From Phycisphaerae bacterium (GTDB taxonomy: Bacteria; Planctomycetota; Phycisphaerae; UBA1845; Fen-1342), in the NCBI GenBank assembly GCA_050115495.1, contig JASFQK010000012.1:1-64000 (forward strand): DNA of 64,000 nt, written 5' to 3'. The position numbers and the translations under genes are program-made. Shown in pieces: positions 15,208 through 54,580 of this stretch. Under the pieces are notes generated by a model. The model did no database searches and had not been told where the DNA came from. It saw nothing but the letters and a program-made list of their open reading frames with translations. Numbering within the stretch: position 1 is the stretch's first letter; the number at the start of each line of letters is the position of its first letter.

Positions 15208-15282
15208 CGGGGCGTAGCTCAGCCTGGCTAGAGCGCTGGCTTTGGGTGCCAGAGGTCGCAAGTTCAAATCTTGTCGCCCCGA
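15208..15282 (+). tRNA. tRNA-Pro (anticodon TGG), CCA not encoded
   Basis: CGGGGCG/CGCCCCG acceptor stem, CTGGC-TTTGGGT-GCCAG anticodon arm, GTTCAAATC T-loop; TATAAT at 15190-15195. Confidence 0.97.
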
Positions 15283-47351: not shown

Positions 47352-48344
47352 ATGTCGCACCGGAACCGACTCACGTTCGGTCTCATCGTTGTGCTGCTGC
47401 TGTCGGCGATCGCGGGCTGTCTGCGACCGGTCGGCTGTCCGGACGGTGGCGCGGTCGCCGATTCGATGACAGTAACGCCGACCGTCGAGCCTTATGTCGG
47501 TCGGGGCGACCCGTATGCCCCCGGGTCGCTGGCCGTGCGGACGGTCAATTTGGACTGCTGTGTGATCGGTGTTCCCGTCCCGCTGCTGATCTATGCTCCG
47601 GAGACGCCCGGCGCGTATCCGATTGTGGTGTTCTTTCATGGCTTTCTGTCGCGGAATGTTGCCTATAGCGAGATTCTGCGCCACGTTGCCAGCCACGGCT
47701 TCGTCGTGGTCGCCCCGCAGATGTACGAGCCCGGCCTGCCGGCTCTGCTGGGCAATCCGTCGGCTGCCGAGGAAGCCGATGTGGCCGGCGAGTTGCTGGA
47801 AGCGCTGCCCGGGCGGTTCGATACGCTGCTCGGCTATGCCCCCGCCGGCGACCGGGTCGGTCTGGCCGGTCACTCTCGCGGCGGAAAGGTGGCCTGGCTC
47901 GTGCTGACCGCCGACGCGTCGCGTGCCCGGGCCGTTGCCGGCGTCGATCTGGTCGACGGTACCGGCGGCCCGCTCGGGAACCAGGCCCGTGTCGTGCAGG
48001 GTCCGTTCGCCTTCAGCCTGCCCGCGCTCGTCATCGGCACTGGCCTCGGCGGAGACTGCGCCCCCGTCGGCGACAATCACGAGCAGTTCTACGCCGCGAG
48101 TGCGTCGCCGGCGTGGCACATCGTCGTGCCGGATCACGGCCACGGGGACATGCTGGACGAGGACGCTGCGGCCGCCGCCGGCGTGCCCTGCTCCACCGGC
48201 CCAAACCGCGCCGCGATGCGCCAGCTCACCGCCGGCCTGCTGACCGCCTTCTTCCGCGCCAGCCTCCAGGGCGATGCGACCGCCTATGACTACCTCACCG
48301 ACACCGACGCGGCGCCGCTGGCGATCGAAGTCGAAAGCAAGTAG
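47352..48344 (+). CDS. Chlorophyllase-family alpha/beta hydrolase, lipoprotein
   Basis: LSAIAGC lipobox; YPIVVFFHGF, HVASHGFVVVAPQ, GHSRGGK, VDLVDG, CAPVGDNH, GHGDMLD. Confidence 0.85.
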   Translation: MSHRNRLTFGLIVVLLLSAIAGCLRPVGCPDGGAVADSMTVTPTVEPYVGRGDPYAPGSLAVRTVNLDCCVIGVPVPLLIYAPETPGAYPIVVFFHGFLSRNVAYSEILRHVASHGFVVVAPQMYEPGLPALLGNPSAAEEADVAGELLEALPGRFDTLLGYAPAGDRVGLAGHSRGGKVAWLVLTADASRARAVAGVDLVDGTGGPLGNQARVVQGPFAFSLPALVIGTGLGGDCAPVGDNHEQFYAASASPAWHIVVPDHGHGDMLDEDAAAAAGVPCSTGPNRAAMRQLTAGLLTAFFRASLQGDATAYDYLTDTDAAPLAIEVESK

Positions 48345-48383: not shown

Positions 48384-50126
48384 TCAGTCCTGCCTGGGCT
48401 TTGCCTGTCTGGCCACCGCCACGATCGCGTCGAGCTTCTCGCGAACTTCGGGATCAACTTCGTCCGGCGGAATCAGGGTGGCCAACTGGTGGTAGTCCCG
48501 CTTGCGCACGAGATTGGGCAAGCCCAGGCGATCGAAGTAGGTGGCAAACAGCGGATCGAGGAACGCGTCCGTGGCCTTGGTGTCCACCCACCAGGCATGC
48601 CCCGCGTCGCGCAGCGCGACCGGCGGCATCTGGTCGTGGATCAGGGTATCCATCAGCTTCACACGCTTGTCGGCTTCCGCCTGCCCAAAGAGATCATCAT
48701 CCAGATCATGCCGGGCGTACGCCCGGAGCACGCTGGGCAGGCACAGGTAGTTCTCAATCTCGCGACGCTTCCAGCTCAGTCCGGCGGCACCGAGGTCGTC
48801 CGGCAGGTCGCGCTCCAGACGATCGAACAGGGCGACGCCAACGAGGTCGCGCTTGGCCTCGCGCAAGCCGTGGAAGTGGCGTCGCACCGCATCGGGCTGG
48901 TTCCCGACATAGTGAACGAAGGGCTCCTTCAGAGAAGCTGCCGCCTCGTGTCCTAACGTCGCCGCAAAGGCTTGGAGGATCGCGAGATCGGTCGAGCCCT
49001 CCAGGTAGAGCACCCAGCCGGTCTGCTCGGCTTGGTAGTAGTGCTCGAAGCCGATTTCATTCAGCGCCTTCAGAACCTGTGAACTGCGGTCATCCAGGCG
49101 GTGCGGCCGACCGACGAAAGCTACCACGACGTCGCGCTCGGCGGCTTCGTTCAGCACAACCTCCGAGTGGCTGGCGGCGATGATCTGCGAGCCTTGCTTC
49201 TCTGCCGTTTCTTTGAGCAGGTTGTAGATCTGGCGCTGCCGCAGGATCTCCAGGTGCGCGTCCGGCTCGTCGAGCAGCAGCACGGTTCGCGGATTCGCGT
49301 ACAGGTGCGCCAGCAACAGCAACGTCTGCTGCAATCCGCGGCCGGAGGACGAGAGATCGAGGTGCGTGCCGTCACGCTCCTCGTAGGCCATCGTGATCTC
49401 ACCGCGCTCCACGCTGAATTCCGGCGACAGCAGCTCGACGCCGAACAGAGACCGTATCGCCTTGACCAGCGCCTGCCAGTCGTTCTGCGAGTCCGCTTGA
49501 GACTGGATCTGGTAGCAGAGGTTCCGCAGCACCTGGGCGGTCTGTCCCTCGCCGATCAAGACGTTGACCCGTCCCGGCTCCCACTTCGGCTCCACCGCCG
49601 CCAGCCCGGACATCGGCGGCAGAAAGGCGATGCGTACATCCCCTGCCGCTGGCGGCACGTTCATGCGCGTTACCGTCGACCCTTCCTCTTCGCGCAGCGG
49701 GCGACAGTAGAGCGACTCTTCGTTGGCGTAGTCAAACTCGATGCCACAGGACCAAGCGTGACCCTCGGTGACGCCGTCGACGATGACGTCGATCCGGATG
49801 TTCTCGGTCTTGGGCTTCTTTCTCCCGTTCGTTTCCACCTGCTCGACGTTACGCACGTGGAGGCCGCGCCACAGCAGGCTGGCGAGTGGCACGGGCAGCG
49901 CGATAAGGTCGCGGCGATTGATCGTGACGACGGGGCGTTTCTCCGGAGACGCTTTCCCCCCGCGTTTCTCCAGCCACCGGCGGACACCGATGTTCCATAG
50001 GGCGAGGGCCTGCAAGGCCGTGGTCTTGCCGGAGTTGTTCGGGCCGATGAGTACGGTGGCCGACCCGAGGTCGATGTCGATATCATCGAACCGCTTGAAG
50101 TTCCGGATGCGAAGCCGCGTCAGCAT
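48384..50126 (-). CDS. OLD-like ABC ATPase + TOPRIM-like domain (putative ATP-dependent endonuclease)
   Basis: LRIRNFKRF, GPNNSGKTT, SSGRG, LLLDEPDAHL, SHS; C-terminal YLEGSTD..FD..REIENY. Confidence 0.82.
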   Translation of the reverse strand: MLTRLRIRNFKRFDDIDIDLGSATVLIGPNNSGKTTALQALALWNIGVRRWLEKRGGKASPEKRPVVTINRRDLIALPVPLASLLWRGLHVRNVEQVETNGRKKPKTENIRIDVIVDGVTEGHAWSCGIEFDYANEESLYCRPLREEEGSTVTRMNVPPAAGDVRIAFLPPMSGLAAVEPKWEPGRVNVLIGEGQTAQVLRNLCYQIQSQADSQNDWQALVKAIRSLFGVELLSPEFSVERGEITMAYEERDGTHLDLSSSGRGLQQTLLLLAHLYANPRTVLLLDEPDAHLEILRQRQIYNLLKETAEKQGSQIIAASHSEVVLNEAAERDVVVAFVGRPHRLDDRSSQVLKALNEIGFEHYYQAEQTGWVLYLEGSTDLAILQAFAATLGHEAAASLKEPFVHYVGNQPDAVRRHFHGLREAKRDLVGVALFDRLERDLPDDLGAAGLSWKRREIENYLCLPSVLRAYARHDLDDDLFGQAEADKRVKLMDTLIHDQMPPVALRDAGHAWWVDTKATDAFLDPLFATYFDRLGLPNLVRKRDYHQLATLIPPDEVDPEVREKLDAIVAVARQAKPRQD

Positions 50127-50208
50127 GGCCCTAGTGTCGCCTGCCACCCAGACCATGGCAAGGCGCCCACGACGTCCCTTGGCCGGTCCGGTGTGGTAGC
50201 AGTCTCCC

Positions 50209-50237
50209 TTGACCCACCCGCCTCGATTCGGGATAGT
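50209..50237 (+). promoter_or_regulatory. Putative sigma70 promoter for the structured leader
   Basis: TTGACC-N17-GATAGT; predicted start falls at about 50243-50244. Confidence 0.45.
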
Positions 50238-50243
50238 AGAATT

Positions 50244-50365
50244 GGCGTACGAAGGACGCCGCCGGGCCTGCGGGAAGGATTGAATCCACCTTCGGGCGTG
50301 TTCGCTGTCACCTTCTTTTCCGCCCGCATGAGCAGGCCTCGGGCGTGATGGAAAGGAAGGTCCTC
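50244..50365 (+). ncRNA. Candidate cis-regulatory structured leader RNA
   Basis: GGCGT/ACGCC hairpin; GGCCTGC/GCAGGCC, TGCGGG/CCCGCA, GAAGG/CCTTC stems; alternative ACCTTCTTTTCC pairing with SD GGAAAGGAAGGT. Confidence 0.6.
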
Positions 50366-51607
50366 ATGCTCCGTTCACTTCCGCCGAAGCCAAACCTGCG
50401 ATTCCTCCAACTTCAGGTCAAGGGCCTGCTCCAGGCACAGCGCCACGCGAACGCCGCCGCCTGTCCCACGCTGCGTTTGCTCGACCGCTTCCGCAACGCC
50501 GGCGACGAGGAGATTCTCGGCGCCAAGGTCATGCTGCACGAGGCGCAGTTTGCGCTGGCCTTGTCGTACGGCTTCAAGAGCTGGCCCGATCTGCGCCGCC
50601 ATCTCCAGACGCTCGTCGAGGTTACGGACCATTCGCTCGACGCCGTCCACCTGGGCACGCCCGAGGAGATCCCCGAATACGCCGCCGCCGGCGTGCCGCT
50701 GGCCACGGTGGCCGCCCTGCACCGCGCGGGCGAGAACGTCGACTTCATCGACCTCGCCGCCGGCAGCGGCTGGGCGTTCAGTTTCGGCTATCGGTACGAC
50801 GATATCTCGCCCGCCTTCCTCGCCGTGCGCGGTCGGCCCGGACGGGACGGCCCGTTCGAGGTCTTCGCCTTCCTCCCCGAACGGCTGGGCTATCGGTACG
50901 AATCGGCCCGTACGCAGGTGCTCGACGAGCTCTGGCCGTTCGTCGTTCGCCACGTCGACGCCGGCACGCCGATCATCAGCGAGCGTCTCGACGGCGGCCT
51001 GATCACGGCCTATCGCGGCGACGGGCCGGACCGTGCCGTGCTCTTCGACGGGCCCGTGGGGGCGGGCTGGGTTCCCGTCGGCGAATTGCAGCCCTACGCC
51101 GTCTACGTGCTGCAGCGCGACGGCCAGCCGCAGCCGACCAGACAGATTGACGCCGAGGCCTTACGGCGAGCTGTTGCCAAGGCGGCGCCGCATACGTGGC
51201 GAGGCGTACCGCAGGGCTTGGCGGCGCTCGAGGCCTATCTGGTGGATGTGGCCGATCCGAACAAGGCCTTCGCGGAAACGCCGGAATGGTTCTGTTGGGC
51301 GGCGTTTGAGCGTCTGACGGCGCGCAAATGCTGCGCTTTGTGGCTCCGCCGACTGGCCGAGCGGTTCGGCGCCCCCGCCAGGAAGCCGCTCCGTGCCGCG
51401 GCCGACCACTACGCGGCGGCGTACGAGCAGTATGAGCAATATCGCCGGGCGGTCACGGCGGGCGAACCGACCCGCGAGGATCTACTCCACCGCGCCCGCA
51501 CTCCCGCGCGGATCGCCGCGATCCTCCCACTGCTGACGGCCGGCATCGAGGAAGAAACCCGGGGTCTGGAGCAGCTCCAGGCTGCCGCCGACCAGACCGC
51601 TGATTGA
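50366..51607 (+). CDS. Hypothetical protein: N-terminal LPxxPNL..YGFxSW domain + BtrH_N/C39-like C-terminal region
   Basis: LPPKPNLRFLQLQVKGLL...LHEAQFALALSYGFKSWPDL; SGWAFSFGY, VDAGTPII, GLAALEAY, LRAAADHY. Confidence 0.7.
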   Translation: MLRSLPPKPNLRFLQLQVKGLLQAQRHANAAACPTLRLLDRFRNAGDEEILGAKVMLHEAQFALALSYGFKSWPDLRRHLQTLVEVTDHSLDAVHLGTPEEIPEYAAAGVPLATVAALHRAGENVDFIDLAAGSGWAFSFGYRYDDISPAFLAVRGRPGRDGPFEVFAFLPERLGYRYESARTQVLDELWPFVVRHVDAGTPIISERLDGGLITAYRGDGPDRAVLFDGPVGAGWVPVGELQPYAVYVLQRDGQPQPTRQIDAEALRRAVAKAAPHTWRGVPQGLAALEAYLVDVADPNKAFAETPEWFCWAAFERLTARKCCALWLRRLAERFGAPARKPLRAAADHYAAAYEQYEQYRRAVTAGEPTREDLLHRARTPARIAAILPLLTAGIEEETRGLEQLQAAADQTAD

Positions 51608-51659: not shown

Positions 51660-52091
51660 ATGCACCGCCATTGCGGGGAGAACGACACGCAGAATACCGG
51701 TCGGACGGCGGCGGCGCCATCGGTGCCACCTCCCGCGGCGCGGGAGATCCGCGTGTGGCGGTACATGCTCTGGGGTGCTGTCATCGGTATCCTGGCCGGC
51801 ATCGCCGAGGCCATGCTAACGGCGATCGGAGCAACCGACTTCTGGCGAACGGCCGAGCTGCACTGGTGCCAATTCGGGGGCTGCGTGTGGCCCTGGGGTG
51901 CCGTCGCCGGCTACATCCTCGCCCGACGCGCCCAGCGCCGCCGGGCCGACCGCGAAGCCGCCGGGCTCTGCCGGAACCGCGGCTACAACCTCACCGGCAA
52001 CGTTAGTGGGCGCTGTCCCGAGTGTGGCACCGCCTGCACGCTGCCGGGACAGTCCGCGTCGCCGGCGGACGCAGGGAAGGAGTGCCCTTGA
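51660..52091 (+). CDS. 2-TM membrane protein with C-terminal (degenerate) Zn ribbon
   Basis: CRNRGYNLTGNVSGRCPECG; TATAAT at 51630. Confidence 0.75.
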   Translation: MHRHCGENDTQNTGRTAAAPSVPPPAAREIRVWRYMLWGAVIGILAGIAEAMLTAIGATDFWRTAELHWCQFGGCVWPWGAVAGYILARRAQRRRADREAAGLCRNRGYNLTGNVSGRCPECGTACTLPGQSASPADAGKECP

Positions 52092-52594
52092 ACCGCACCC
52101 GGGCCTATCTCGAACTGCTGGGTTGGCTCGTTCTGGCCGTGCTGCTGGCGTGGTTCGGCACGGCCACCGTACGCGAGATCGTGCCGTACCTCGTGTGGAC
52201 ACCGCTGCACGTCCTGCCGTTTGCCGTGATCCTATTGGCGTCTTACCGGGCAGGCTCGAACCGGCTACCGACGTGGCCCGTAGTTACCTTCGGTCTGTTG
52301 TGCACGATCGGGTTTCTGCCGCTTCTGCTGCCGGATACACGGGGCCGGGCGGCGCTCGACGCGGGCATGGTGACCGTCTGGTTCTATGTCGCCCGCACCG
52401 CCACGTTCACGCTGTCGCTGCCCGTCATCTGTGCCTTTGTGGCGATACTCGGCCGCCGCCGCGCGCAGCGTAAGACCGGCCACTGCTCGCACTGCAGCTA
52501 CAACCTCACCGGCAACGCCAGCGGACGCTGTCCCGAGTGCGGCGAGGTCGTTTCGGTTCCTGATCAGCGCGGGAGAGATGCGCATGCCGGGTGA
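52088..52594 (+). CDS. 4-TM membrane protein with C-terminal Zn ribbon
   Basis: TTG start overlapping the previous stop, SD GGAAGGAG; CSHCSYNLTGNASGRCPECG. Confidence 0.8.
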   Translation: MNRTRAYLELLGWLVLAVLLAWFGTATVREIVPYLVWTPLHVLPFAVILLASYRAGSNRLPTWPVVTFGLLCTIGFLPLLLPDTRGRAALDAGMVTVWFYVARTATFTLSLPVICAFVAILGRRRAQRKTGHCSHCSYNLTGNASGRCPECGEVVSVPDQRGRDAHAG

Positions 52595-53273
52595 ATCCGC
52601 CGGCCCTGTCGAGCCCGCCGCCGTGCCGAGCGCAGAATCTGCGCCCCCTTCCCGTTGGCTCAGCGCCGGCGTTCGGCTGCTTGCCATTCTCGTCGCGGCG
52701 GCGGCAGCCCTGCTTTCCACAAACAACTGGTGTTTCGTCATCCTGCCGGCGGCCCTGGCGGCGATCGTCGTTGATTATGTCGTGAGCGGCATTCGCCCCT
52801 GGTCTGTTCTCCGCCTGATCGTCGCCGTCGCCGTGGGGCTGGCGGTCGGCCGGCTGCTCAGCGTCGGGCCGGACTGGGCCTTTCAGGAGGCCTTCGGCGT
52901 CGACGCCCCCGCCGGCGTTCGCGACGTGCATATCTTCCGGCACTACGTCGGCGGCCCCGGCGAGCACATCCTCATCATCGAGTTCACCGCCAACCCGGAC
53001 GTGGTGAAGGCCCTGTTGTCGCTGCACCCCGTGGTCACCAACAGCGAGACGGCCCAATCCTGGCATGCCGCCGGCGGCGGGTGGCCGCAGGCGTTCGACG
53101 ACTTCGCCGGACCGTGCCCGATGGGCTTCGCCCGCGCCGCGTGGCTGCGTATCCGCCCGTTGGCGGAACCGGAGGTCTTCGACTTCGGCGGTATCGAGGC
53201 CAGCGGCGGCCGGCTTGTTCTCTTTCACGAGCCGCACACCGATCGCTGTGTCGCCCTGCACGTGCGGTGGTGA
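52584..53273 (+). CDS. Hypothetical membrane protein
   Basis: Three N-terminal hydrophobic segments + soluble domain; overlaps the previous stop. Confidence 0.7.
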   Translation: MPGESAGPVEPAAVPSAESAPPSRWLSAGVRLLAILVAAAAALLSTNNWCFVILPAALAAIVVDYVVSGIRPWSVLRLIVAVAVGLAVGRLLSVGPDWAFQEAFGVDAPAGVRDVHIFRHYVGGPGEHILIIEFTANPDVVKALLSLHPVVTNSETAQSWHAAGGGWPQAFDDFAGPCPMGFARAAWLRIRPLAEPEVFDFGGIEASGGRLVLFHEPHTDRCVALHVRW

Positions 53274-53335
53274 GTGTGTTGCGGGCACCGAGCACGGCCC
53301 GCGACGGAAACGCCGGCCATGGAGCCCAGATCCGC

Positions 53336-54580
53336 ATGGCAGACGCTCAAGACAACTCGCCGACCCGCCACCGCCGTCGGGACGTCCTCCGCCGGCGGCC
53401 GTGGCTGTCCGCGGCCATTCTCGCCGGCGGCGCCATTGTCTACTGGCTGCTGTGCTGGCCAGCAGTCTCCGCCAGCGTCTTCACGCCCGTCGACCCCTTC
53501 TGGGGGTTCATGCGCTGGCTCTGGCCGATTCCCGTGCTGCTGTCGGCGATTTGCGAGAACCGGCGGTGGACCAGAACCTGGCAGCTTCTCCTGTACGCCC
53601 TCGCCGTCGGGTACGTGTTCCGGATAACGTTCCACAGCCCACTCTACCTGCTGTTGTACCGACCGACACTGGCAACGTGCATGCAGCGCACCGCTGTAGG
53701 CGGGGGCATCGTCTTCGCCGCCGCCTGGTGCCTGGAGCAGGTGGCCCAGTACTCGCTGCGCTTCGTTCGCGGATTCGAGACACAAGGTCTGTGCCAGCGC
53801 TGCGGCTACTGCATCCTGCACCTGCCCGAGCCACGCTGCCCGGAATGCGGCCGACCATTCGATCCAGAGCACGCCACCAGCGCTCTCACGTCCCGGGAGT
53901 CTGCCCGCCCGCGGCGGACGCAGATCGTCGCGATTGCCCTGATCCTCGCCGGCGCGAGCACACCGTTCGTGCTCCAGGCGATCTCCAATGGCGTGGCCGC
54001 GGCCCAAGGCCGGGCGGCGGCGAAGAACGACTGGGCTGCTGACTGTCCGCTCTTCCACATCGACAGAAGCGCCACCCCGTGGCTCACGAGCAACACGTAC
54101 GATGTGGACACGGGCATGCTCCTTCGCTCTTTCGGCGCGGGTTTGAGGACAAAGCCGTTCGAAGAGGCGTACCACGCCGCGATCCTGAAGCAGCTTGCCC
54201 GCTACGGCCCGCCCCCGCGACGGCCGGACGTGTTGGACCGCGAGCAAATCAAGGCGTTGCTGGCGTCGGGCCGCTTCGTTGACGTGTCTGAGGACCACTT
54301 CCACCTGAACAACGTGCTCATCACACGGTACTCGTTCGACCCGATGTGGCCGATCAAAGGACGCCCCGACGCTCCACCCGGGTGGTTCGAGATCGGCAGC
54401 TTCGGCTGCCCCGTCTCCTGCGCTTACTCGGACGACGCCAGCGGCGTGGCCTACCTGTTGCTCAAGGACACGTTGCTCGTGAGCTTCGCGCCAGATGGCA
54501 GCGTGCTCCAGCAAGTCGCGCTCGACCAGGACGGAGTCGCCGACCACCCCCCGATCTGGCCACCGCCGCCGGCTCCGTGA
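53336..54580 (+). CDS. Multi-TM membrane protein with internal Zn ribbon and C-terminal soluble domain
   Basis: CQRCGYCILHLPEPRCPECG between TM4 and TM5. Confidence 0.78.
   Translation: MADAQDNSPTRHRRRDVLRRRPWLSAAILAGGAIVYWLLCWPAVSASVFTPVDPFWGFMRWLWPIPVLLSAICENRRWTRTWQLLLYALAVGYVFRITFHSPLYLLLYRPTLATCMQRTAVGGGIVFAAAWCLEQVAQYSLRFVRGFETQGLCQRCGYCILHLPEPRCPECGRPFDPEHATSALTSRESARPRRTQIVAIALILAGASTPFVLQAISNGVAAAQGRAAAKNDWAADCPLFHIDRSATPWLTSNTYDVDTGMLLRSFGAGLRTKPFEEAYHAAILKQLARYGPPPRRPDVLDREQIKALLASGRFVDVSEDHFHLNNVLITRYSFDPMWPIKGRPDAPPGWFEIGSFGCPVSCAYSDDASGVAYLLLKDTLLVSFAPDGSVLQQVALDQDGVADHPPIWPPPPAP

What the first reader, a model, noticed from the sequence alone, without database searches (positions are those of the whole stretch)
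50209..50640. Two-state structured RNA leader coupled to an 'LPxxPNL..YGFxSW' N-terminal domain: candidate new RNA-protein regulatory system
Seen: a promoter placing +1 at a GGCGT-ACGAAGG-ACGCC hairpin (50244-50260), then two mutually exclusive folds. State A: GGCCTGC 50265-71 / GCAGGCC 50332-38 (or TGCGGG 50269-74 / CCCGCA 50323-28) with GAAGG 50274-78 / CCTTC 50311-15, leaving the SD free. State B: ACCTTCTTTTCC 50310-21 pairs with SD GGAAAGGAAGGT 50350-61 (12 bp, one G-U), supported by GCCC/GGGC, blocking translation. The gene begins with a ~80-aa helical domain fused to an unrelated BtrH_N-like region. Unverified recollection: this small domain (Glyoxalase_8-like) caps many ankyrin, glyoxalase and other proteins, often behind similar 'GTACGAAGGACGC...GTTCGCT..CACC' leaders. 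Inference: a portable module in which the domain binds its own leader, or the leader is an orphan riboswitch. I cannot match it to a named Rfam family.
Basis: partly seen in the sequence, partly recalled or inferred. Interest (0 to 1): 0.85.

Follow-up and report, generated by a model that had tools for sequence, protein, structure and literature searches.

The report
Uncatalogued pseudoknotted leader RNA, domain-linked
The untranslated start of this gene's message is one copy of a widespread, uncatalogued folded RNA that hides the ribosome-binding site and almost always sits in front of genes whose proteins begin with the same small unannotated domain, which points to an undescribed way of controlling translation.

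Summary
Window 50241-50365 (+) is a real, conserved, about 125-nt mRNA leader. It follows a sigma-70-type promoter (50209-50237) and precedes a 413-aa gene (ATG 50366). I gathered 121 loci from named MAGs of about 11 phyla. In 123 of 130 matches to the gene's 85-aa N-terminal domain, the same leader lies directly upstream. Searching leader-first, 44 of 46 hits precede that domain.

On an unbiased alignment of 112 leaders, 91% of pair cells are paired, against 43-57% when partners are slid. 34 of 39 pairs show compensatory changes. The fold has P1, P3, and a long hairpin (P4+P5) that buries the Shine-Dalgarno sequence. It also has two pseudoknot contacts: PK1, and the P2 loop-loop pairing.

No Rfam 15 family matches, and my literature searches found nothing. 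Mutual exclusivity of the two folds is not shown.

The most likely function is a translational lock. Its trigger is unknown: the domain itself, a small ligand, or folding kinetics. This scan has reported the same module on other genomes before.

The parts
50209..50237 (+). sigma-70-type promoter: -35 TTGACC 50209-14, 17-nt spacer, -10 GATAGT 50232-37. The predicted start is at or near G50244.
   Evidence: 9 of 12 matches; 1 site against 0.1 expected. Homologues keep cTTGAC and tAtaaT at the same place. Of 82 leaders with enough upstream sequence in my slice, 65 have TTGAY-N16-19-nAnnnT. In 55 of those 65 the -10 ends 6-7 nt before GGCG.
50241..50365 (+). Leader RNA, one member of an uncatalogued family (covariance model R1).
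   Evidence: R1 hit 50241-50371, 115.8 bits, E 6e-29. It is the only copy in the own genome.
50244..50260 (+). P1 hairpin GGCGT/ACGCC with the 7-nt loop ACGAAGG.
   Evidence: helix 1: 4 of 5 pairs show double changes (GGCA/TGCC, GGCT/AGCC, GTGT/ACAC).
50251..50293 (+). PK1 pseudoknot: P1-loop GAAGG 50251-55 pairs with CCTTC 50289-93.
   Evidence: RNAalifold picks it. helix 2: 5/5 pairs covary, 91.4% paired. In divergent leaders the pair is CAGG/CCTG.
50262..50273 (+). Pa: the 2-bp closure CC 50262-63 / GG 50272-73 around the P2 5' strand.
   Evidence: helix 3: 95.1% paired, both pairs covary (CG/CG, GC/GC, GT/AC, CT/AG variants).
50265..50338 (+). P2 long-range loop-loop pairing: GGCCTGC 50265-71 with GCAGGCC 50332-38, which lies in the loop of P4.
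   Evidence: helix 4: 97.8% paired, 7/7 pairs covary; 94.5% paired in the divergent set. Flanking linker lengths are fixed.
50277..50287 (+). P3 hairpin GGAT/ATCC with a 3-nt loop ending in a near-invariant A.
   Evidence: helix 5: 4/4 pairs covary, 94.4% paired. The loop is 3 nt in 112/112, and A is at the last loop position in 109/112.
50310..50361 (+). P5+P4 hairpin that sequesters the ribosome-binding site. Anti-SD ACCTTCTTTTC 50310-20 pairs with SD GAAAGGAAGGT 50351-61. P4 is GCCCG 50322-26 / CGGGC 50340-44.
   Evidence: helices 6 and 7: 88.6% and 92.8% paired; 8/11 and 4/5 pairs covary. The computed energy of P5+P4 is -18.9 kcal/mol. Many U-G cells, with U on the 5' side, place the structure on the sense RNA.
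50366..50620 (+). Coding sequence of the 85-aa N-terminal domain (LPxxPNL...AK..LL...C..LR...Q.ALA..YGF.SW).
   Evidence: 1271 cluster representatives at E<=1e-3, nearly all matching from residue 1. AF2 gives five helices, pLDDT 89.6. No Pfam or NCBIfam family. No solved fold.
50633..51607 (+). C-terminal body: a BtrH-type papain-fold acyl/amide transferase-like domain plus a helical tail. 51605-51607 is the stop codon.
   Evidence: Pfam BtrH_N E 1.2e-3, below cut-off. AF2 pLDDT 79.9. Foldseek AziU3/U2 7wuw_C E 9e-8, TM 0.58; also CcbD and CtaG.

Best explanation
The leader is a cis-acting translational lock. It is transcribed from its own strong promoter. It folds into a compact 5' domain: the P1 hairpin, whose loop pairs with the strand just after P3, and a 2-bp-closed loop carrying GGCCTGC. 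That loop pairs with the loop of a long 3' hairpin (P4+P5), and the stem of this hairpin buries an unusually long Shine-Dalgarno sequence. In this fold the ribosome cannot reach the SD, so the gene is silent until something loosens the fold, or it is silenced further when something clamps it.

Shown: the fold, its conservation, and that it contains the SD. Inferred: that it controls translation.

My single best guess for the partner that sets the lock is a protein of the N-terminal-domain family itself. That would be feedback acting on every family member in the cell, because the leader travels with that domain whatever cargo is fused behind it. This last step is inference only.

My odds:
- The fold is real: about 0.95.
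- It gates translation through SD masking: about 0.7.
- The domain family is the effector: about 0.3.
For: Fold:
- The MAFFT alignment of 112 leaders was not fitted to any structure. On it, 91.2% of 4355 pair cells are standard pairs, against 43-57% with partners slid by 1-3 columns.
- 34 of 39 pairs have changes on both sides.
- There are 400 compensatory cells, against 123 +/- 10 in shuffles; 0 of 500 shuffles reach any measure.
- The pseudoknot pairs, which are absent from the covariance model, hold in 23 divergent leaders: 92.6% paired against 33-42% slid.
- Linker lengths around P2 are fixed, while other loops vary from 13 to 49 nt.

SD masking:
- P5 pairs 50310-20 with 50351-61. It covaries with the SD variant (CCTTCTTTTC/GAAAGGAAGG, CCTTCTTTC/GAAAGGAGG, CCTTCTTCC/GGAAGGAAGG, CCTCTTTTTC/GAAAAGGAGG).
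- P5+P4 is -18.9 kcal/mol.
- The internal anti-SD:SD duplex has median -16.7 kcal/mol, against -13.8 for SD with this genome's 16S tail. The internal duplex is stronger in 85 of 112.

Link to the domain:
- 123 of 130 domain matches have the leader directly upstream. Of the 7 misses, 3 are contig edges, 2 are internal second copies of the domain, and 2 are true misses.
- Leader-first, 25 of 26 hits and 19 of 20 precede the domain.
- Cargoes are unrelated to one another.
- The domain is moderately basic: median pI 9.15, net +3 over 158 proteins.
Against: No binding or expression data exist for any member, and no RNA-seq holder was listed.

The leader-domain link may only reflect co-inheritance of adjacent DNA while 3' cargo is swapped. 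It therefore does not require physical contact.

L046:432-569 is an intact leader (108 bits) in front of a homologous enzyme body that has a signal peptide in place of the domain. L114:169-303 (91 bits) has no domain ORF behind it.

Sixteen percent of the domains have pI below 7. The domain has no recognised RNA-binding fold.

About 36 near-invariant positions across roughly 11 phyla, together with two tertiary contacts, look as much like a riboswitch aptamer as like a protein operator.

With the SD helix this stable, a further repressor seems hardly needed.
Confidence: 0.3

Rival explanations
1. Orphan riboswitch. The same fold is an aptamer for a small molecule or ion. Ligand binding stabilises or loosens the 5' domain and the P2 loop-loop contact, and so sets SD access. 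The domain family is then simply the regulon of that ligand.
For: The architecture is elaborate and pseudoknotted, with the SD built into the conserved fold. About 36 near-invariant nucleotides are kept across roughly 11 phyla. There are 1-9 copies per genome. Near-invariant unpaired adenines sit at junctions: A at columns 42, 43, 50 and 55. An intact leader occurs without the domain (L046).
Against: No coherent pathway or transporter is among the controlled genes; the cargoes are heterogeneous. Few conserved unpaired positions are available to form a pocket. No conserved alternative pairing that would act as an expression-platform switch was found. There is no Rfam match.
Confidence: 0.27
2. 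Ligand-free kinetic or physical gate, which is the first reader's two-state idea in its workable form. During transcription P2 forms first and delays P4/P5, giving each new mRNA a short window of translation before it locks itself. Alternatively, ribosome or S1 competition, an RNA helicase, or RNase processing opens the lock.
For: The P2 strands are transcribed before the SD. The P2 duplex is -13.5 kcal/mol. The locked state is thermodynamically dominant yet the SD is extremely strong, which suits an all-or-none window. No effector is evident from gene context: no conserved neighbour in 121 loci.
Against: The fixed 5-nt and 1-nt linkers around the P2 3' strand suggest that P2 and P4 coexist rather than alternate. 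Such a gate does not need so elaborate a 5' domain (P1, PK1, P3).
Confidence: 0.2
3. An unrelated trans factor binds the leader, and the leader mimics that factor's normal target. Candidates are a protein or sRNA not encoded nearby, or a ribosome-associated factor that recognises the 16S 3' end.
For: The leader carries CCTGCGG followed by CACCTTC, and then a second TCACCTTCTTTTC. The own 16S rRNA ends ...CCTGCGGCTGGATCACCTCCTTTCT, so the order of elements resembles helix-45 3' strand plus anti-SD tail.
Against: The similarity is a post hoc observation. CCTGC covaries with its P2 partner, so base pairing, not sequence, is the constraint there. Any anti-SD must resemble the 16S tail. No candidate factor was found.
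Confidence: 0.12
4. There is no RNA function. The conservation is DNA-level, for example a promoter or operator, or a recombination module copied together with the 5' end of the gene.
For: The promoter, leader and first 85 codons are always inherited together.
Against: Compensatory changes occur in 34 of 39 pairs, including long-range ones. Frequent U-G pairs would be A-C mismatches on the other strand (for example pair 116/188 with UG in 45 sequences). Helix sequences differ while the pairing is kept in divergent subfamilies.
Confidence: 0.03

Closest known systems
Autogenous translational operators with pseudoknots in ribosomal-protein mRNAs (E. coli rpsO/S15 leader, rpmI-rplT/L20 long-range pseudoknot). 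Recalled from the literature, not tested here.
   Same: A 5' leader on the mRNA of one protein family. A pseudoknotted fold that includes or traps the ribosome-binding site. The control is translational, with no terminator (one search found none).
   Different: Those operators are confined to related bacteria and to one essential gene each. This leader occurs 1-9 times per genome in about 11 phyla. It sits in front of a domain fused to unrelated cargoes. The domain is not a known RNA binder. Binding is untested.
SD-sequestering pseudoknot riboswitches (SAM-II RF00521, preQ1-II RF01054 and similar). The architecture is recalled; Rfam membership was tested.
   Same: The SD is part of the conserved fold. 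Loop-to-strand pseudoknots are present. There is no separate terminator platform.
   Different: No Rfam model matches the window at gathering score or at E<=10, nor 20 homologous loci. This RNA is much larger (about 125 nt, five helices plus two tertiary pairings). No ligand or metabolic regulon is evident.
Loop-loop (kissing) contacts that organise riboswitch aptamers (purine riboswitch L2-L3, guanidine-II). Recalled.
   Same: A 7-bp pairing between the loop closed by Pa and the loop of P4 ties two subdomains together.
   Different: Here the contact joins a 5' domain to the SD-masking hairpin itself, rather than forming a ligand pocket that has been demonstrated.
Earlier reports of this scan on other genomes (e1-6818884, e1-7598738, e1-7598730, e1-6813189, e1-8132792, e1-6775465). 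These are AI notes.
   Same: They describe the same leader family and the same N-terminal domain, and reach the same reading: an uncatalogued pseudoknotted leader that hides the RBS.
   Different: They are a different copy on different DNA and are not independent evidence.

Membership tests
Any Rfam 15 family (4227 covariance models) | Score at or above the family's gathering threshold | tested here: not met
   The window at gathering score gives only a tRNA at 15208-15282. The region 50000-50700 at E<=10 gives only a chance minus-strand P4 sRNA hit, 14.3 bits against 37. 20 homologous loci give 0 hits.
Riboswitch (generic class) | Conserved structured aptamer supported by covariation | tested here: met
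   34/39 pairs are compensatory, and 0/500 shuffles reach the observed values.
Riboswitch (generic class) | Expression platform coupled to the aptamer | tested here: met
   The SD lies in P5 of the conserved fold. No terminator is present.
Riboswitch (generic class) | Direct, selective binding of a small molecule or ion | not testable with these tools
   Needs in-line probing, ITC or similar.
Riboswitch (generic class) | Controlled genes form a coherent metabolic, transport or signalling set | tested here: not met
   48 of 122 family proteins have a Pfam cargo at E<=1e-5. These span T2SSE, FHIPEP, FliG, PilM, Response_reg, HATPase_c, RNA_pol_Rpb2, NusA, ClpX zinc finger, APH, GNAT, HEAT, Ank and others. 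Only the N-domain is shared.
Autogenous translational operator | The leader sits on the mRNA that encodes the binding protein | tested here: met
   If the N-domain is the binder: 123 of 130 and 44 of 46 leader-first. Exceptions are L046:432-569 and L114:169-303.
Autogenous translational operator | The encoded protein is an RNA-binding protein | tested here: inconclusive
   Median pI is 9.15. No Pfam or NCBIfam family matches. No solved fold matches (Foldseek best E 2.6; VIA best Z 4.3).
Autogenous translational operator | The protein binds the leader and represses translation | not testable with these tools
   Needs EMSA and reporter assays.
Pfam BtrH_N (PF14399), for the C-terminal body | Score at or above the Pfam gathering cut-off (29.7 bits) | tested here: not met
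   19.5 bits, E 1.2e-3, residues 131-204. The fold does resemble the BtrH-type enzymes AziU3/U2, CcbD and CtaG (E 9e-8, TM 0.58), so the body works like that family, but sequence membership is not shown.
Pfam Glyoxalase_8 (PF20066), for the N-domain | Score at or above the cut-off (23.7 bits) | tested here: not met
   The window's domain has no hit even at E<=10. Relatives P0016 and P0043 give E about 0.02, 15 bits, against profile positions 5-55.

The most novel reading that the evidence does not exclude
Promoter, leader and N-domain together form a portable, self-contained expression-control cassette. The 85-aa domain would be a new RNA-binding fold that recognises the pseudoknotted leader. 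Alternatively, domain and leader would sense the same signal. Either way, any cargo fused behind the domain is placed under one family-wide translational lock. The cargoes include pieces of flagellar (FliG, FliN, FlhA), pilus (PilM, PilB/T2SSE, PilC), transcription (RpoB lobes, NusA, DksA finger) and Clp machinery. The patchy, multi-copy distribution across phyla and the decoy-like cargoes would fit a conflict or defence-type family that is kept silent until triggered.
Probability: 0.22. Interest if true: 0.9.

Novelty: new variant of a known kind. Interest (0 to 1): 0.8.

Why it matters
If the fold gates translation, this is a new and widespread class of structured leader, seen in about 11 phylum-level groups as named in the MAG record titles. 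It comes with a ready-made alignment and covariance model. Whether its key turns out to be a metabolite (a new riboswitch class) or the accompanying 85-aa domain (a new RNA-binding fold and a modular feedback cassette), it opens a directly testable question.

It also gives a first handle on a large unannotated protein family. The domain matches 1271 cluster representatives at E<=1e-3. Its members fuse that one domain to fragments of motility, secretion, transcription and proteolysis machines.

Tried and rejected
- Single-sequence folding: MFE z-score -0.64, so it says nothing either way.
- Leader DNA and N-domain paralogues in the own genome: none beyond the locus itself.
- Rfam at gathering score and at E<=10: no family.
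- RNA-seq: no RNA holder listed for window 50100-50900, so I did not lay reads.
- Viral contigs: 12 pattern matches, none confirmed as a relative of the domain.
- Fold of the N-domain: Foldseek pdb has nothing at E<=1e-3. VIA-align wide has best Z 4.3. The PDB sequence profile has none. The ESM Atlas gives only unnamed clusters.
- Conserved neighbour genes in 121 loci: only antisense shadow ORFs over the domain, and 8 ECF-type sigma factors.
- PADLOC on P0001: no family.
- Idea that the 16S tail out-competes the internal anti-SD: rejected, because the internal duplex is stronger in 85/112.
- Literature: seven full-text searches plus passage look-ups in PMC2864571 and PMC11109978 gave nothing on this RNA or domain. 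PMC2864571 lists a 'Rhodopirellula-1' motif that has no Rfam entry. I could not inspect it because its description is not in the main text and I did not read the supplements, so identity with this leader is not excluded.
- Tool slips: wrong start coordinate, corrected; parameter out of range, not repeated; too many words, corrected.
Full report
**What is in the window.** A TTGACC-17-GATAGT promoter lies at 50209-50237; one search found one such site where shuffles give 0.1. A GGCGT/ACGCC hairpin starts 7 nt after the -10. A purine-rich Shine-Dalgarno sequence GGAAAGGAAGGT lies at 50350-61, and the ATG at 50366. The ORF (50366-51607) encodes 413 aa (P0001). Taken alone the sequence is unremarkable: its minimum free energy is only 0.64 SD below dinucleotide shuffles. 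No Rfam family matches at gathering score or at E<=10 in 50000-50700. The leader DNA and the N-terminal 85 aa are single-copy in this 6-Mb genome.

**Relatives.** The first 85 aa match 1271 cluster representatives at E<=1e-3 and 381 at E<=1e-10, almost always from residue 1 of proteins of very different lengths. I aligned the window's domain with 22 short relatives (A1). With that alignment I fetched 75 loci from species-representative genomes and 46 from metagenome contigs. The record titles name Phycisphaerae and other Planctomycetota, Verrucomicrobiota, Lentisphaerae/Victivallales, Hydrogenedentota, Zixibacteria, Armatimonadota, Sumerlaeota, Fibrobacteres, Gemmatimonadetes, Coatesbacteria and Pseudomonadales MAGs; these bin labels are not checked. 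The 40 nt before the start codons are strikingly alike although the domains are only 40-70% identical. The likeness extends about 125 nt upstream, to a conserved cTTGAC/tAtaaT promoter. Of 82 leaders with enough upstream sequence in my slice, 65 have TTGAY-N16-19-nAnnnT. In 55 of those 65 the -10 ends 6-7 nt before the GGCG of P1.

**The fold.** I aligned 112 leaders with MAFFT, without any structure (A2). Before alignment I dropped six sequences, and they count as misses or special cases below: L092:1855-2000 is an internal second domain, and L066, L075, L114:1764, L096 and L079 showed no obvious leader by eye.

RNAalifold proposed the P1-loop/CCTTC pairing, a 2-bp CC/GG pairing, P3 and P4. 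I then counted a structure of seven helices, two of which cross the others:
- P1: 50244-48/50256-60
- PK1: 50251-55/50289-93
- Pa: 50262-63/50272-73
- P2: 50265-71/50332-38
- P3: 50277-80/50284-87
- P5: 50310-20/50351-61
- P4: 50322-26/50340-44

Results:
- 91.2% of 4355 cells form standard pairs, against 43.4-57.1% when every 3' partner is slid by 1-3 columns.
- 34 of 39 pairs have changes on both sides.
- There are 400 compensatory cells, against 122.8 +/- 9.9 in shuffles.
- None of 500 shuffles reaches any of the five measures.
- P2 is 97.8% paired with all seven pairs covarying (GGTCTGC/GCAGACC, CGTCTGC/GCAGACG, CGGCAGC/GCTGCCG, CGGTTGC/GCAACCG, GGCCTAC/GTAGGCC).
- Frequent U-G cells in P5 (for example 45 and 53 sequences at two pairs) would be A-C on the other strand, so the structure belongs to the sense RNA.

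The shuffle control ignores relatedness. The slide control and the number of independent pair types are therefore the stronger arguments.

A covariance model (R1) holds only the nested helices. It scores the window at 115.8 bits. In 23 mostly divergent leaders aligned to R1, the two pseudoknot helices are absent from the model. They are nevertheless 92.6% paired against 33-42% slid, with 10 of 12 pairs compensatory, for example PK1 CAGG/CCTG and P2 GGTCCAC/GTGGACC.

P2 and P4/P5 share no bases; they cross, with the P2 3' strand lying in the 13-nt loop of P4. Three observations argue for coexistence as a loop-loop pseudoknot:
- Both covary.
- The non-conserved linker between P4 and the P2 strand is 5 nt in 108 of 112 leaders, and the linker after it is 1 nt in 112 of 112. 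Other unpaired stretches vary from 13 to 49 nt and from 3 to 30 nt.
- My own geometric reasoning: a 5-nt linker can cross the deep groove of a 7-bp helix when the 3' strand runs continuously through P2 and P4.

This is inference, not proof, and a kinetic alternation is not excluded.

**Link to the protein domain.** R1 found 129 hits in the 121 loci. Of 130 tblastn matches to the domain, 123 have an R1 hit ending at the start codon. The seven misses are:
- three at contig edges (L035, a second match in L044, L061);
- two internal second copies of the domain (L116:2014, L092:2001);
- two true misses (L114:1764, L075:2001).

Because that set was chosen by the protein, I also searched leader-first:
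- Five other genomes gave 5, 5, 9, 4 and 3 hits. 25 of these 26 precede an ORF that starts with the domain; the exception is the weakest hit, at 30 bits. Some of these are the same places as loci.
- In a sample of 151 Planctomycetota genomes, 9 have a hit at E<=1e-4, the own genome among them. The filters used there lose weak matches.
- Of 20 further hits, from that sample and from two small orders, 19 precede the domain. These include a shorter subtype (...AQ..LAREYGF.SW..LK.HVE).

Leaders not followed by the domain:
- L046:432-569 (108 bits)
- L114:169-303 (91 bits)
- L096:134-237 (40 bits)
- G163:C35:94189-94365 (48 bits)
- G003:C12:149779-149914 (30 bits)

L046 is informative. Its leader is intact. 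The ORF starts at the usual distance, but it encodes a lipoprotein-like signal peptide followed by a body distantly homologous to the C-terminal part of P0001 (29% identity, E 1e-4).

The tight link may simply mean that promoter, leader and the first 85 codons are inherited as one block while the 3' part is exchanged. It does not by itself show contact between RNA and protein.

**The proteins.** The domain has no Pfam or NCBIfam family. Two relatives touch Glyoxalase_8 weakly, at E 0.02. AlphaFold2 gives five helices with pLDDT 89.6. No solved fold resembles it. It is moderately basic, with median pI 9.15. Its last two helices around YGF.SW look to me like a helix-extended-loop-helix, but that is a recalled resemblance and was not tested.

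Of 122 family proteins scanned, 48 have a Pfam cargo at E<=1e-5:
- Secretion and pilus: T2SSE (6), T2SSF, PilM (2).
- Flagellar: FHIPEP C-terminal half (2), FliG_N/FliG_C (4), FliN.
- Signalling: Response_reg (5), HATPase_c (3).
- Transcription and Clp: RNA polymerase beta lobes with TPR, NusA_N, NusA-type KH, ClpX and DksA zinc fingers, Clp_N.
- Enzymes: a bifunctional nuclease domain, APH (2), GNAT, methyltransferase, FGE-sulfatase, PhyH, BtrH_N (2).
- Repeats and others: HEAT (3), CarboxypepD_reg (5), Ank (2), Cass2/GyrI.

The window's own cargo (residues 90-413) folds like the BtrH-type papain-fold enzymes AziU3/U2, CcbD and CtaG (E 9e-8, TM 0.58). No neighbouring gene is conserved across the 121 loci. 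Several loci carry two to four tandem units, each with its own promoter and leader, for example G001:C165.

**How it most likely works.** Shown: a conserved fold that contains the SD. Inferred: it gates translation. P5+P4 is worth -18.9 kcal/mol in the window. The anti-SD:SD duplex (median -16.7) is stronger than SD paired with this genome's 16S tail (-13.8) in 85 of 112 leaders. Yet -13.8 is itself a very strong SD (the own 16S tail was used for all leaders, which is an approximation). So the resting state is closed, and an opened leader should translate very well.

What sets the lock is open. I rank the candidates as follows:
- A protein of the domain family itself: about 0.3.
- A small ligand: about 0.27.
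- A ligand-free kinetic or ribosome/processing gate: about 0.2.
- Another trans factor: about 0.12.
- No RNA function: about 0.03.

**Comparison with what is known.** The leader works like autogenous pseudoknotted operators (rpsO, L20) or SD-sequestering pseudoknot riboswitches (SAM-II, preQ1-II). Both comparisons are recalled. It is a member of none: Rfam 15 has no matching model. Seven full-text searches and passage look-ups in two papers found no description of the RNA or the domain. The supplements of PMC2864571, where a 'Rhodopirellula-1' motif without an Rfam entry is described, were not read.

This scan has reported the same module on other genomes several times. I saw those notes after reaching my reading. 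They agree with it, but they are AI notes and not independent evidence.

**Limits.**
- There is no expression, probing or binding evidence.
- MAG taxonomy is taken from record titles.
- E-values of R1 are rough.
- The covariation counts are per sequence, not per evolutionary event.

Noticed in passing
window 48384-50156 (-): The divergently transcribed upstream gene encodes a 590-aa ABC-type ATPase. Pfam gives AAA_21/AAA_15. PADLOC gives its best hits to NsnB, AriA, AriAB and GajA, which are the ATPases of anti-phage systems. No link to the leader gene was found.
   Followed up: partly
window 51660-52091, 52022-52594, 53081-54580 (+): A run of predicted membrane proteins shares a C-terminal ...NLTGN.SGRCPECG zinc-ribbon-like motif (weak Pfam zinc-ribbon hits only). 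The paralogous family has unknown role.
   Followed up: no
window 47352-48344 (+): A chlorophyllase-family alpha/beta hydrolase (PF07224, E 4e-56) with an N-terminal lipoprotein-like signal.
   Followed up: no
L046:432-1727: An intact leader (108 bits) precedes a BtrH-like protein that has a lipoprotein-type signal peptide in place of the N-domain. A normal leader+domain gene follows at L046:1878.
   Followed up: partly
proteins P0029, P0042, P0045, P0052, P0074, P0153: Cargoes behind the domain are often isolated pieces of cell machines. Examples are FlhA cytoplasmic half, FliG_N/C, FliN, PilM, T2SSE+T2SSF, RpoB lobes+TPR, and NusA_N with ClpX and DksA zinc fingers in one protein. They look like decoys or titrators. 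Their function is unknown.
   Followed up: no
G001:C165:18-4607 (= L023, L141, L146, L156, L161): Four tandem promoter-leader-domain units lie within 4.6 kb. Other genomes hold 3-9 dispersed copies.
   Followed up: partly
window 50267-50293 and 50308-50321 versus L186:1251-1285 (-): The leader carries CCTGCGG, then CACCTTC, then TCACCTTCTTTTC. The own 16S rRNA ends CCTGCGGCTGGATCACCTCCTTTCT. This may be mimicry of the 16S 3' end, or chance combined with the needs of an anti-SD.
   Followed up: partly
A2 columns 150-182 (e.g. L104, L105, L108, L121, L122, L127, L130, L133, L039:865, L086): About a dozen leaders carry an extra small hairpin inserted in the 3' internal loop between P4 and the SD. 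The rest have 5-7 unpaired nt there.
   Followed up: no
L092:1740-2250, L116:1753-2260 (P0010): Some proteins carry two copies of the N-domain in tandem. Only the first copy has a leader.
   Followed up: no
L066:1897-1965: Only the 5' half of the leader (P1 to PK1) is recognisable upstream of a domain gene in a MAG labelled Enterobacterales (23 bits). It is either a decayed copy or a misassembly.
   Followed up: no
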